Source of the DNA: the human T2T-CHM13v2.0 reference genome, Homo sapiens
Length of the DNA stretch: 64,000 nucleotides
Direction: 5' to 3' (one strand)
NCBI RefSeq assembly: GCF_009914755.1
Contig: NC_060929.1
Below the pieces are notes generated by a model that did no database searches, had not been told where the DNA came from, and was given only the letters and a program-made list of their open reading frames with translations. Within the stretch, counting starts at the first letter, position 1. Each line of letters begins with the position of its first letter. Of this stretch, positions 56,670-62,602 are shown piece by piece. The translations under genes were made by a program, and so were the position numbers.

Positions 56670-57260
56670 ATAAACAGATTTTCAAAAAACATAACATGAC
56701 CCTTAAATAGGAAAAGATGTTCAGATTTACTCATAATTAAAGAGATGCAAATTAAAGCTACACATTTCTCACTTAACATATTGGCAAATATGTAGAATTG
56801 ATAACACATTCAGTCAATGAAGCAGTGAGGAAATAGGTGCTCTTGTGTATTTCTGGTGGGAAGGCAAATGTGTCACAACCCTTTTGGAAGAAAATTTGTT
56901 AATATTTAACAAAACTAATTGTGCATTTACTTTTTGATCAGCAATTCCACTTACAGGAATTCTCCCTGAAGATACACTAATTCAGTAACTATATGAAAAT
57001 ACATATATACAAGGTTATTCAGTCATTGTTTGTAATTTCAAAAAAAATGGAAACAACCTACATGCTCATACGAAAGACACTGGCTGAATAAACTATGGCA
57101 TATGAACACAACAGAGTACTATGCAGCCATAAGAAAGAATAAGGAAGGCCCCTGTTGACTGATATAGAATAACTTTCAGTATACACCTTTAGGTGAAAAG
57201 GCAAAGTGCAAAAGAATATATACTGTATACTACCTTTTGTGTAAAAAATAAGCAAAGATA

Positions 57261-58040
<780 letters not shown>

Positions 58041-58104
58041 ACTGTAAAGAATCTTTAGTATGGCTAGTGTTAGTACATGTATTTTTCAGTGATGTTTGCA
58101 AGGC

Positions 58105-58431: not shown

Positions 58432-58913
58432 AATTCTAAAACTACTTGATATGCATTCTGGGGTTGAGCAAGTGAGTAAATATATTGTGGAAAACCGGAG
58501 TCAGGTTTCTCACTGTTAGAGAAGCGAGTACTAAATATGAAAAGGGTTTCCTTCTGGAAGGCTAGAATGAGATCTGTGAGACTAGACTAGAATTGGATAT
58601 ATCAGTATGGACTCACAGTTTCTAATACATAGAACAAGGAGGGAAGTATTTTTATATAGACAAAAAATTATACATACATTTCCTAACACAGTTGGCTGAG
58701 AGGGCCTAGAAGCAATGACATTCCAGTAGCACTAAGCACACTTGCCACCCAGATCTAATACCATTCCTCAGTGAAAGGAAACAAGGCTCTTCGGAGAAAT
58801 GGCTGGTTCCAAGGCTGAGAGTGGGAAAATACAAGATAAGCCTGGAACATGTTGCAACAGAAAATAAGGAAGTACTTAAACAATTATGAGAACAGATCAA
58901 AAGGATACAGACA

Positions 58914-59239
<326 letters not shown>

Positions 59240-59539
59240 CTAAACTTTAAACACTCTGACCATCGAAATAAATAATGATAATAAAAGATTAAAATAACGT
59301 ACTGAATAAAATAGGAAAATATAGGTGTATACTGATAGAATAAATGAAAAACTGAAATTCTGATGAAAACAGGATATTTGTGGAGTTTCAAAGTACCTCC
59401 CCACCCAATGCATAATTACAAAGGGAAAAAGAATAACTTTACAATGAAGAAGGCTTGATAGACATTTCCTTACTCAAGTGATCTAAGTGATCACCATTCT
59501 GAATGAGAGAAATCAATATTATGTACTACCTGAGAGGAT

Positions 59540-60830
59540 GCAATGAGAAAACAGAAATCGCTTTTATGATATTCATTTAAACTAAATCTAACCATAAGGA
59601 AACAAAGGACAAACCTAAATTGACAGACTATGAAACAGCTGGTCTGTAATCTTCAGAAGTGTCAAGGTCGTGGAAGTCCCGCAAAGACCAAATAACTCTT
59701 CCAGACTGAAAAAAACTAAAGAAGTGTGACAACTAAAGGCAATGCATCATTCTGAACTGGGTAGCTCTGCTATAAAGGAAATTATCAGGACCTCTGATGA
59801 AACTTAAATAAGGGCTGAGAATTAGTTGGCAGTAACCTGTCAGTGCTAATTTACCGATTTGATTCTCGTATTATGACTATGTAGAACATCCTCCTTTGTA
59901 GGAAATACACAGTAAAATATTACAGCATGAGAGAAGCATTCGGTCAGCTTTACTTTCAAATTGAGAAACAAAAGGTTCTGTGTGTTATACTAATAACTTT
60001 TCTATAAGCTTGAGACTGTCTCAAAATAAATAAAAAGCAATATTTCAATGGCTTGTTTACATTAATTATTACCTAACACTTCAAACTATGAGCTCATATC
60101 CCCAGGAATAAATGTGCTAAAAATCCTTTGTGACTTTTAGGTTGGGAAAGACGCATGAACCTGTAGTGTCAGTCAGTGCTAGTTTGAGAATATTTGTTCA
60201 TTAAGATCATGTGATTAAAATGTGGTGGTAAAAAAGTCACAAAGGATTTTTAGCACACTTATTCCTGGGGATATGAGCTCATAGTTTGAAGTGTTAGGTA
60301 ATAATTAATGTAAACAAGCCATTGAAATATTGCTTTTTATTTATTTTGAGATAGTCTCAAGCTTATAGAAAAGTTATTAGTATAACACACAGAACCTTTT
60401 GTTTCTCAATTTGAAAGTAAAGCTGACCGAATGCTTCTCTCATGCTGTAATATTTTACTGTGTATTTCCTACAAAGGAGGATGTTCTACATAGTCATAAT
60501 ACGAGAATCAAATCGGTAAATTAGCACTGACAGGTTACTGCCAACTAATTCTCAGCCCTTATTTAAGTTTCATCAGAGGTCCTGATAATTTCCTTTATAG
60601 CAGAGCTACCCAGTTCAGAATGATGCATTGCCTTTAGTTGTCACACTTCTTTAGTTTTTTTCAGTCTGGAAGAGTTATTTGGTCTTTGCGGGACTTCCAC
60701 GACCTTGACACTTCTGAAGATTACAGACCAGCTGTTTCACAGTCTGTCAATTTAGGTTTGTTCTTTGTTTCCTTATGGTTAGATTTAGTTTAAATGAATA
60801 TCATAAAAGCGATTGCTGTTTTCTCATTGC
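59540..60830. repeat. Long inverted repeat: 599-bp arms (59540-60138 and 60232-60830) with a 93-bp spacer
   Basis: Base i pairs with base 120370-i throughout, with no indels. Five mismatches found by eye. Confidence 0.97.
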
Positions 60831-60845
60831 TATTGTGACAGCTAC

Positions 60846-61120
60846 CACCTGTAATCCTAACACTTTGGGAGGCCAAAGCAGGCAGATCACTTGAGCCCAG
60901 GAGTTTAAGACCAGCCTGGGCAACACAGTGAAACCCCGTCTCTACAAAAAAATCCAAAAACACTAGCCAGGCGTGGTAGCACACACCTGTAGTCCAGTTG
61001 CTCAGAAGGCTGAGGTAGGACGATCACCTGAGCCCAGGAGGTTGAGGCTGCAGTGGGCAGTGATCACACCACCGTACTCTGGCCTGGGTGACAGAGTAAG
61101 GCCCTATCTCAAAAATTAAT
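60846..61120 (+). mobile_element. AluJ lacking its extreme 5' end
   Basis: Starts at cacctgtaatcc. Confidence 0.88.
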
Positions 61121-61769
61121 TAATTAATCAATTAAATTTTTTAAATTTAATTAAAAATAAATTATTATTTTTAAAAATAAGGGGTTCATCCATCTATCTC
61201 TTTTCTGTGAACTCTACCAGATGCCCTGGGCAATGTTTCTTTTGACAGTCTTTTTCTTTCAAATTAGGTGACAGTTTCTTCCTATCTACTATCATCAGAG
61301 CTACCATTACTTTAACCCTCAATTTTTCATTTCTTATTGTCTTAAAGATGAAGGATTTAACATTTGCCTTCTACTCCAAATTAAGTAACTAAGATGCATC
61401 CTGTAATGTAAAGATTTTACAGGGATGCCAATAAGTGACTGTTGGTTTTCTAAAGAGAGGAACCTTCTTTATATTAGGGTAGACAGTGTTCATATGCAAT
61501 CTGTCTACAACAATTGGCAGCTTGTTCTCTGCATGTAACATAAGGCATGGGACATAGTAGGACTCAGAACCATGGTACATAAATATGTCCAAGATATAAG
61601 AGTGATTCTGTTTTCTTAAGTAGTTTGTGAGTAACTCCATTCTAAGTGAATGATCTGAATTTTGAAATCTAGTTGTAGCAGCCAGGCAACTCAATGGCAG
61701 GCTGTTGTTAGGTGTTTGGACATCTCTTGACATCCTTTTCTTGGCCAAGCACAGCAGCACAGATCTTCT

Positions 61770-62057
<288 letters not shown>

Positions 62058-62602
62058 TAGATCTTGTTTTAGTAGGCCATGCCTTAGCTGACTCAACATA
62101 TATTCAAACTGCTCAGGGGAAAGAGTTGCCACTTGTAAAGAGGTTTGAATTTAGAGCATGCTACTAAATTATACAGAGCAACAGGCTTGCTAAAGCTTTT
62201 CAAAATAAAAATGTTCAATCCTAGTGAAGGCATAATGAGACGTAAACACTCCGGGAAACAATTTGACAAGATATATATGATGTATCTCCTGGAAATATAT
62301 CCTAGCTAATTCAAAATGAAGCCAAAGATTTACGCACAAAGATGGTGATTAGCTTTTTGGATAATTAAGAATAAAGACTCTAAGCACCCAAAGAAATGAC
62401 AAGTTATGGAAAGTTCATAAAATATATAAGACAATGTCAAATTATGCTATGAGAAATTATAGGAATACATTAATACACTCATTCTATTAAGTATACAAAG
62501 CATAGAAAGTAAAATTATACATCTATTTATATGCATATAATAAATTATATATATAATAATCCCAACTATGTAAAACATATGCATAGATTTAAAAGTAAAA
62601 GA

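What the first reader, a model, noticed from the sequence alone, without database searches (positions are those of the whole stretch)
59540..60830. Near-perfect 1.3-kb quasi-palindrome (599-bp arms, 93-bp loop) inside an FBXW11 intron
Seen: 59540-60138 is the reverse complement of 60232-60830 with no indels and five mismatches (left-arm positions 59555, 59608, 59630, 60018, 60112; about 99% identity). The arm is old L1M 3' sequence plus flank, so this identity cannot come from two independent insertions. The left arm runs on into upstream L1M sequence and the right arm ends abruptly, so the right arm is the derived copy. Established: long inverted repeats with short spacers are unstable, can form hairpins or cruciforms, and long dsRNA is an ADAR substrate. 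Inference: this is a young fold-back or template-switch duplication, or one homogenised by arm-to-arm conversion. FBXW11 pre-mRNA would carry a ~600-bp hairpin far more perfect than an inverted Alu pair. That makes it a candidate hyper-editing or small-RNA source, with a spacer that may flip orientation.
Basis: partly seen in the sequence, partly recalled or inferred. Interest (0 to 1): 0.8.

Follow-up and report, generated by a model that had tools for sequence, protein, structure and literature searches.

The report
Catalogued 599-bp inverted duplication, FBXW11 intron
A 599-base stretch of an FBXW11 intron was copied in reverse 93 bases downstream of itself, giving a real near-perfect palindrome that a 2020 survey already lists and found almost absent from, and barely edited in, tissue RNA.

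Summary
Arms 59540-60138 and 60232-60830 are 599 nt, with 5 mismatches at the stated positions, no indels and a 93-nt spacer. It is not an assembly artefact. Barak et al. 2020 (PMC7006430, Table S8) list the same structure in hg19, with 599-nt arms, a 93-nt gap and 98.83% identity, which equals 7 mismatches.

The left arm is the parent. In 16 of 23 genomic copies of the same old repeat, the alignment runs straight through the arm's outer edge. An L1 ORF2 remnant lies upstream on the same strand. The arm also carries 104 nt of unique flank beyond the repeat. The right arm is a derived inverted copy that ends within about 3 nt of the 5' end of an old Alu.

The geometry fits a "3-2-1-4" template-switch or fold-back synthesis event, but neither junction shows microhomology. 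Age is roughly 1-20 Myr and cannot be refined without ape orthologues.

In pooled poly(A) GTEx RNA the locus had FPKM 8e-4 and editing indices of 0 and 1.3%. The hyper-editing idea therefore has almost no support so far.

Verdict: a real, already catalogued and probably neutral rearrangement relic.

The parts
56712..57143 (+). Remnant of L1 ORF2 (post-RT region), upstream context of the parental repeat
   Evidence: tblastn with an 889-aa open L1 ORF2 piece taken from own-genome locus L033 matches three collinear segments, E 6.9e-12. Pfam scans of stop-free pieces found nothing.
58460..58912 (+). Upstream part of the old dispersed (L1-type) repeat that contains the left arm
   Evidence: Family copies L003, L004, L006, L007 and L008 align here, collinear with 59201-60039.
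58913..59204 (+). Younger Alu inserted into that repeat, flanked by an 'aaaaggatacagac' direct repeat
   Evidence: Matches many Alus in the window at 80-85%; flanking direct repeat read; SRP/Alu hits in Rfam.
59205..59539 (+). Repeat sequence directly upstream of the left arm; it shows the arm's outer edge lies inside the repeat
   Evidence: 16 of 23 family-copy alignments begin at 59401-59510 and run through 59540. Five of the six copies with longer flanks reach back to 59201-59292.
59540..60138 (+). Left arm, the parental copy: repeat 3' end (to about 60035) plus 104 nt of unique flank
60139..60231 (.). 93-nt spacer (the loop), unique in the genome, 37.6% GC
60232..60830 (-). Right arm, the derived inverted copy; at least 3 of the 5 differences are derived here
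   Evidence: Family homology stops at 60830, or earlier at 60792, in 5 of the 6 copies; the L003 alignment runs on to 60851 and L005's merges into the Alu. Polarisation.
60831..61175 (+). Old Alu with a degenerate A/T-rich tail; its 5' end abuts the right arm within about 3 nt
   Evidence: MAFFT alignment with 10 other Alus of the window; 72-78% identity to other Alus; sequence read.

Best explanation
This is a local DNA-level inverted duplication with no demonstrated function. [quoted passage not shown] The most likely process is a switch-and-return of a DNA polymerase onto the complementary strand, either at a replication fork (a '3-2-1-4' template switch) or during fold-back repair synthesis at a break. 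The event is fixed or at least common, since it is present in both hg19 and CHM13. Shown: the structure, which arm is the parent, the uniqueness of the copy and its presence in two assemblies. Inferred: the mechanism, an age of roughly 1-20 Myr, and neutrality. FBXW11 pre-mRNA should fold it into a 599-bp hairpin, but published poly(A) RNA data show almost no reads and little editing.
For: Structure. Only two near-identical copies exist genome-wide; the remaining 39 matches are 66-78% identical and confined to arm positions 28-495. Left arm in native context: 5 of the 6 copies align continuously across 59201/59292-60039 (L005 only in two pieces), 5 of the 6 continue across the Alu to 58460-58911, and 16 of 23 alignments cross 59540. 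An L1 ORF2 remnant lies upstream on the + strand. Right-arm homology ends at the Alu, and nothing right of the Alu matches the sequence left of 59540. At the 3 polarisable sites the left arm keeps the family-majority base: 14 of 21, 16 of 22 and 8 of 13. The geometry matches the '3-2-1-4' type that creates an inverted repeat (PMC5453318, passages). hg19 carries the same arms and spacer. The adenosine count of the right arm in FBXW11 sense (220) reproduces the table's inosine-per-transcript values, which ties the row to this locus.
Against: Neither junction shows microhomology; pairing stops dead at both ends. That is not typical of microhomology-primed switching and would fit end-joining capture of a copied fragment equally well. 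At 599 nt the copy is far longer than the tens of bases described for short-range template switches (PMC5453318). The ancestral state was not seen, because no ape orthologue is reachable with these tools. The attempt to show from the Alu's target-site duplication that the spacer once abutted the Alu was inconclusive (P = 0.36 and 0.30). Neutrality is assumed, not shown. The poly(A) read depth is about ten-fold or more below the authors' FPKM 0.01 cut-off, and I could not explain this.
Confidence: 0.75

Rival explanations
1. This is an older palindrome whose arms are kept alike by arm-to-arm gene conversion, so 0.8% divergence greatly understates its age.
For: A 387-nt mismatch-free centre; the chance of a gap that large among 5 random sites is 0.032 (post hoc). 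The mismatch count differs between assemblies, 5 in CHM13 against 7 in hg19. That difference could reflect conversion or ordinary polymorphism.
Against: Arms of 599 nt are far shorter than those of palindromes known to convert (recalled). The differences seen are one-sided, with 3 of 3 polarisable ones derived on the copy arm; conversion does not predict this. All 6 CpGs are retained in both arms, which fits youth as well as conversion.
Confidence: 0.12
2. This is a much younger event, possibly human-specific or polymorphic, in which most arm differences were made by low-fidelity synthesis during the copying itself.
For: All 5 mismatches lie within 120 nt of a junction; mean distance to the nearest arm end is 63.8 nt, P = 0.012 (post hoc). 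At least 3 are derived on the copy arm. Replicative repair is reported to be error-prone and to give point mutations with rearrangements (PMC4352052, passages citing Carvalho 2013).
Against: Three of three on one arm has P = 0.125 one-sided, and both tests were chosen after seeing the data. hg19 and CHM13 both carry the structure, so it is not rare. All three polarised changes are plain transitions, as ordinary drift also gives.
Confidence: 0.2
3. This is a functional RNA hairpin: a nuclear ADAR, Drosha or Dicer substrate that yields small RNAs or modulates FBXW11 pre-mRNA.
For: The predicted single stem has -1080 kcal/mol, with only three true mismatches and two G·U pairs in the FBXW11-sense RNA. 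Muscle-pool editing index on arm 2 is 11.4%, which equals 5/44 and suggests one heavily edited read (the fraction is my inference). Read depth is very low despite rescue of both-arm reads; this could mean rapid destruction.
Against: FPKM 8e-4 and editing indices of 0 and 1.33% in the 15-tissue pool. No Rfam family reaches threshold; the MIR6140 hit scores 52.5 against a 140-bit cut-off and is a generic hairpin match. No full-text paper links FBXW11 to inverted repeats in this sense, and none of the 15 papers listed of the 173 found holds 'FBXW11'. Immunogenic dsRNAs reported so far are mostly 3'-UTR Alu pairs (PMC13251931, passages).
Confidence: 0.07
4. This is an assembly artefact of T2T-CHM13.
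For: None found. Palindromes can in principle arise from chimeric long reads.
Against: hg19, built by other methods from other DNA, has the same 599/93/599 layout.
Confidence: 0.01
5. These are two independent L1 insertions, or one L1 inserted with a twin-priming inversion.
For: Most of each arm is L1-type sequence.
Against: The arms are 99% alike, while family copies are 62-78% alike. Both arms share 104 nt beyond the repeat's A-rich end. Twin priming gives adjoining, not identical, segments (recalled).
Confidence: 0.01

Closest known systems
Long, nearly perfect inverted duplicated sequences in human pre-mRNAs (Barak et al. 2020, Genome Biol, PMC7006430, Table S8; 197 loci)
   Same: This very locus is a row of that table: hg19 chr5 171368234-171368833 / 171368926-171369525, length 599, 98.83% identity. 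It meets both criteria of the class, arms over 300 nt and identity over 96%.
   Different: It has the shortest gap of the 197 rows I read: 93 nt, with the next at 172 and 175. The paper does not discuss it individually and says nothing about its origin.
Short-range template-switch mutations, type '3-2-1-4' (Löytynoja & Goldman 2017, PMC5453318; Walker et al. 2021, PMC7954356, listing only)
   Same: A reverse-complement copy of nearby sequence is placed just downstream, creating a new hairpin-forming inverted repeat. The order of switch points is the same.
   Different: The described events are tens of bases long, whereas this copy is 599 nt. No outgroup was available to show the before-state.
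Fold-back inverted duplications with a spacer (Hermetz et al. 2014, PMC3907307; abstract in search listing only)
   Same: An inverted duplication separated from its parent by a short single-copy spacer.
   Different: Those are large, pathogenic and paired with terminal deletions. This one is 0.6 kb, interstitial, apparently without loss, and shows no junction microhomology.
Intronic inverted Alu pairs, the common ADAR substrates
   Same: An intramolecular duplex in an intron, formed from retroelement sequence.
   Different: Alu pairs in this window are 72-82% complementary over 156-267 nt. This one is 99% over 599 nt and arose by duplication, not by two insertions.
Arm-to-arm converting palindromes of the sex chromosomes, and spacerless AT-rich palindromes (PATRRs); both recalled, not looked up
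   Same: Near-identical inverted arms that can form hairpins or cruciforms.
   Different: Arms here are far shorter than sex-chromosome palindromes. Unlike PATRRs it has a 93-nt spacer and is only moderately AT-rich (65.6% AT).

Membership tests
Long nearly perfect inverted duplicated sequence in a human pre-mRNA (Barak 2020) | Arms longer than 300 nt | tested here: met
   599 nt.
Long nearly perfect inverted duplicated sequence in a human pre-mRNA (Barak 2020) | Arm identity above 96% | tested here: met
   594/599 = 99.17% in CHM13; 98.83% in hg19.
Long nearly perfect inverted duplicated sequence in a human pre-mRNA (Barak 2020) | Both arms inside one RefSeq transcript unit | tested here: met
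   The hub annotation places FBXW11 across the whole window. The locus is listed in Table S8, and its adenosine count matches FBXW11 sense.
Template-switch mutation, type 3-2-1-4 (four-point model) | The new fragment is a reverse-complement copy of nearby sequence, with switch points ordered 3<2<1<4 | tested here: met
   Parent 59540-60138, copy 60232-60830, return at 60831. Model as described in PMC5453318.
Template-switch mutation, type 3-2-1-4 (four-point model) | A close relative lacks the copy (ancestral state seen) | not testable with these tools
   No primate genome other than the window's own is held.
Template-switch mutation, type 3-2-1-4 (four-point model) | Short range and short copied fragment (tens of bases) | tested here: not met
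   The range is short (93 nt back), but the copied fragment is 599 nt.
Fold-back inverted duplication | Microhomology or a short inverted repeat at the fold-back junction | tested here: not met
   No complementary base beyond either arm end.
L1 twin-priming inversion | The two inverted segments are different, adjoining parts of one L1 and contain no flank | tested here: not met
   The arms are the same segment and include 104 nt beyond the repeat's end.
Recombinogenic long inverted repeat (criteria quoted in Lirex paper PMC5414712 from Lobachev 2000) | Identity above 85% | tested here: met
   99%.
Recombinogenic long inverted repeat (criteria quoted in Lirex paper PMC5414712 from Lobachev 2000) | Spacer under 20 bp; arm-to-spacer ratio above 16 | tested here: not met
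   Spacer 93 nt, ratio 6.4. Criteria as in the passages.
Hairpin-RNA / endogenous siRNA locus | Transcript folds into a long perfect hairpin | tested here: met
   A prediction only: one stem, -1080 kcal/mol.
Hairpin-RNA / endogenous siRNA locus | 21-23-nt small RNAs map to the arms | not testable with these tools
   No small-RNA data on hand. No Rfam microRNA family passes its threshold.
Hyper-edited ADAR substrate | Clustered A-to-G mismatches in RNA reads | tested here: inconclusive
   Published pools give editing indices of 0 and 1.33% (15 tissues) and 0 and 11.4% (muscle), at FPKM 8e-4 and 6e-5. That is too few reads to decide.

The most novel reading that the evidence does not exclude
The copy is far younger than its 0.8% divergence suggests. 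On this reading it is a hominin-lineage, possibly still polymorphic, 599-nt template-switch event whose differences were written by the low-fidelity polymerase that made it. All five differences lie within 120 nt of a junction, and at least three are derived on the copy arm. That would make it a natural record of the error signature of long-tract template switching in the human germline. It would also be the human genic hairpin with the shortest loop in its published class, removed from RNA pools faster than ordinary intron sequence.
Probability: 0.15. Interest if true: 0.45.

Novelty: already known. Interest (0 to 1): 0.25.

Why it matters
Long, nearly perfect intramolecular RNA duplexes are rare in human genes and are discussed as potential triggers of dsRNA sensors. 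This one is among the longest and tightest, and it has the shortest loop in the published list of 197. It is intronic, and published poly(A) data show almost no reads and little editing. Its practical importance therefore seems small. What remains useful is that it is a clean, datable example of a 0.6-kb inverted template-switch or fold-back duplication with both junctions intact. It is also a place where short-read mapping, variant calling and PCR will misbehave.

Tried and rejected
1. The second inverted pair near the locus (59080-59201 / 61777-61898) is not an outer part of a larger palindrome. It is an ordinary Alu pair.

2. I looked for a continuation of the right arm beyond the Alu and found none.

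3. Pfam scans meant to prove L1 identity found no reverse transcriptase. These covered 14 stop-free pieces upstream in the window and 70 of the 151 pieces of at least 45 aa from the upstream flanks of six family copies, taking the 70 longest. PF08333 is not in the library.

4. tblastn with a natural L1 ORF2 open frame then gave the upstream remnant in the window. Its hits in L003, L008 and L028 lie on the wrong side or strand of the family copy and were not counted.

5. The target-site-duplication test, meant to show which sequence the old Alu originally abutted, was inconclusive.

6. Rfam with permissive thresholds gave only Alu/SRP-type hits and a sub-threshold generic hairpin match.

7. Literature. 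'FBXW11' with 'inverted repeat' found 2 unrelated papers. 'FBXW11' with hyper-editing terms found 173 papers holding at least 2 of the 5 terms; none of the 15 listed holds 'FBXW11'. Wang & Leung 2009 (FEBS J), which catalogues human intronic long inverted repeats, is not held and may also list this locus.

9. No structure, complex or protein-database tool was relevant.

Full report
**Observation**

The repeat finder reports arms 59540-60138 and 60232-60830: 599 nt, 99% complementary, 93 nt apart. A base-by-base comparison gives five mismatches and no indels:
- They lie at left-arm positions 59555 (A/C), 59608 (G/A), 59630 (A/G), 60018 (G/A) and 60112 (A/G).
- No base pairs beyond either end of the arms.

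blastn gives 99.165% over 599 nt.

Within the window this is the only inverted repeat of at least 150 nt and within 3 kb that is not an Alu pair. The five others are 72-82% complementary. A second pair near the locus (59080-59201 / 61777-61898) is simply two Alus in opposite orientation.

**Not an artefact, and already in print**

Barak et al. 2020 (Genome Biol 21:26, PMC7006430) aligned every human RefSeq pre-mRNA to itself. Table S8 lists the 197 inverted duplicated sequences longer than 300 nt and more than 96% identical. I read the results section, the methods passages and all 197 rows.

One row reads: chr5 171368234-171368833 / 171368926-171369525 (hg19), length 599, identity 98.8314%.
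- The arm length and the 93-nt gap are identical to the window's.
- The position agrees within about 11 nt with my rough transfer of coordinates. That transfer used the FBXW11 gene start and recalled hg19 gene coordinates.
- The table's 'inosines per transcript' (2.93 and 25.0) equal its editing indices multiplied by 220. The right arm has exactly 220 adenosines in FBXW11-sense RNA.

98.83% is 592/599, so hg19 has seven arm differences against five in CHM13. The structure therefore exists in two independently built assemblies, and its arms vary a little among humans.

By my reading of the 197 rows its 93-nt gap is the shortest; the next are 172 and 175 nt.

**What the arm is**

A search of the window's own genome with arm plus spacer found the two arms and 39 further matches at 66-78% identity. 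All of these are confined to arm positions 28-495, i.e. window 59567-60034. The tool warns that such counts are lower bounds.
- Most of the arm is therefore an old dispersed repeat that ends at about 60035 after an A-rich stretch.
- The last 104 nt of the arm and the spacer have no other match.

I aligned 23 copies of the family.
- 16 of the 23 alignments start at 59401-59510 and run through the arm's outer edge at 59540.
- Of the six copies fetched with longer flanks, five align in one stretch from 59201-59292 to 60027-60039. L005 aligns only in two pieces.
- Five of those six continue across the inserted Alu (58913-59204) to 58460-58911. Again L005 is the exception.

In the right arm the same copies stop at 60830, or earlier at 60792, in five of the six. 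The L003 alignment runs on to 60851, and L005's merges into the Alu. What follows is an Alu. Nothing to the right of that Alu resembles the sequence left of 59540.

The L1 identity was harder to show.
- Pfam scans found no reverse transcriptase. They covered 14 stop-free pieces upstream in the window and 70 of the 151 pieces of at least 45 aa from the upstream flanks of six family copies, taking the 70 longest.
- tblastn with a natural 889-aa open L1 ORF2 piece from the same genome found a collinear remnant at window 56712-57143 on the + strand, E = 6.9e-12.

This supports 'old L1 3' end'. The subfamily label L1M rests on recall, because no repeat library was available.

**Junctions**

Aligned with ten other Alus of the window, the sequence after the right arm corresponds to Alu position about 4 onwards. 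The copy therefore ends within about 3 nt of the 5' end of an old Alu, which is 72-78% identical to other Alus.

Neither junction shows microhomology.

I tried to decide from the Alu's target-site duplication whether the spacer once abutted the Alu. Both candidate flanks scored like shuffled sequence, P = 0.36 and 0.30, so the test is inconclusive.

**Mechanism (inferred)**

The layout is parent, then 93 nt, then reverse-complement copy, then resumption of the original sequence. This is the '3-2-1-4' outcome of the four-point template-switch model, which creates a new inverted repeat (PMC5453318, passages). It is equally the product of fold-back synthesis at a break followed by end joining. 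Fold-back duplications with spacers are described at much larger scale in PMC3907307, for which I saw only the abstract in a search listing.

Two points count against a textbook template switch:
- The copied tract is 599 nt rather than tens of bases.
- The junctions are blunt.

Two independent L1 insertions and L1 twin priming are both excluded. The arms are 99% alike while family copies are 62-78% alike, and both arms carry the same 104 nt of non-repeat flank.

**Age**

Five differences give 0.83% divergence (95% Poisson interval 0.27-1.95%). Seven give 1.17% (0.47-2.41%). With recalled human substitution rates of 0.5-1 × 10^-9 per site per year and two diverging arms, that is roughly 4-12 Myr centrally and about 1-20 Myr at the extremes. 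So the event is not clearly 'young', and it may or may not be shared with chimpanzee.

Two observations warn that this clock may mislead.
- The differences hug the arm ends. Mean distance to the nearest end is 63.8 nt (P = 0.012), and the largest gap is 387 nt (P = 0.032). Both tests were chosen after seeing the data.
- At the three sites that the family majority can polarise, the left arm keeps the majority base: 14 of 21, 16 of 22 and 8 of 13. The fourth repeat-borne site is a tie (5 A, 5 C of 16), and the fifth lies in unique flank.

So at least three changes are on the copy arm.

One-sided, junction-near changes are what error-prone repair synthesis would leave (PMC4352052, passages citing Carvalho et al. 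2013). That would make the event younger than the clock says. A mismatch-free centre is also what a conversion tract would leave, and that would make the event older. The data here cannot separate these readings.

**RNA level**

FBXW11 is on the minus strand and the locus is intronic (hub annotation). The minus-strand RNA is predicted to fold into a single stem of -1080 kcal/mol. The five imperfect positions are U·C, C·A, G·U, C·A and G·U (derived).

Barak et al. pooled 30 GTEx poly(A) samples from 15 tissues, plus a muscle pool. They kept reads that map to both arms in opposite orientation and re-aligned hyper-edited reads. For this locus they report:

| Pool | FPKM | Editing index, arm 1 | Editing index, arm 2 |
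|---|---|---|---|
| 15 tissues | 7.96e-4 | 0 | 1.33% |
| Muscle | 6.3e-5 | 0 | 11.4% |

The two non-zero indices equal 1/75 and 5/44. My inference is that they rest on a handful of reads.

The locus is below the authors' FPKM 0.01 cut-off, which only 20 of the 197 pass. The hyper-editing idea thus has almost no support in steady-state poly(A) RNA. Nascent RNA, dsRNA pull-downs and small RNAs remain untested.

Other checks:
- Rfam gives nothing above threshold. A MIR6140 hit at 52.5 bits against a 140-bit cut-off is a generic long-hairpin match.
- No full-text paper links FBXW11 with inverted repeats in this sense.
- The FBXW11 plus hyper-editing search found 173 papers holding at least 2 of its 5 terms. 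None of the 15 listed holds 'FBXW11'.
- Recent work isolating MDA5-bound RNAs points to 3'-UTR Alu pairs rather than intronic hairpins (PMC13251931, passages).

**DNA level**

By the criteria quoted in the Lirex paper (PMC5414712, passages), strongly recombinogenic inverted repeats have spacers under 20 bp and an arm-to-spacer ratio above 16. Here the spacer is 93 nt and the ratio is 6.4. Persistence of the structure in two assemblies is therefore unsurprising. Spacer flipping is possible in principle but could not be examined.

**Verdict**

The locus is already catalogued in a published genome-wide list with expression and editing measurements. The most likely reading is a neutral relic of a single template-switch or fold-back duplication.
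- The parental arm is identified.
- The shared unique flank is shown.
- The copy is placed at the Alu edge, with blunt junctions.
- The arm differences are one-sided and lie near the arm ends.

Interest is low to moderate.

Noticed in passing
window 58913-59204: A younger Alu sits inside the old L1-type repeat, with a clear flanking direct repeat ('aaaaggatacagac'). It forms an 84%-identical inverted pair with the Alu at 61766-62058, about 2.6 kb away. That pair brackets the whole palindrome and would compete for pairing in the pre-mRNA.
   Followed up: partly
window 56712-57143 (+): A remnant of L1 ORF2 (region after the RT domain) was detected only by tblastn (E 6.9e-12); Pfam scans of stop-free pieces missed it. 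It probably belongs to the same old L1 whose 3' end forms the left arm. Contiguity across the Alus at about 57240-58050 was not shown.
   Followed up: partly
window 61113-61178: The tail of the old Alu has decayed into an A/T-rich low-complexity stretch (ttaa/aaat-type units) rather than a plain poly-A.
   Followed up: no
PMC7006430 Table S8 (hg19 rows): A few other genic palindromes in the published list also have short gaps: chr2:109884229-109885044 (172 nt), chr3:168467926-168469435 (175 nt, 667-nt arms) and chr3:10132340-10133597 (213 nt). They may be products of the same process and could be examined together.
   Followed up: no
window 59540-60830, published RNA data: Poly(A) read depth over the arms (FPKM 8e-4) is about ten-fold or more below the FPKM 0.01 cut-off the authors applied, even though both-arm reads were rescued. 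Whether this reflects RT or PCR bias against a perfect hairpin, rapid decay, or low intron retention is unexplained.
   Followed up: no
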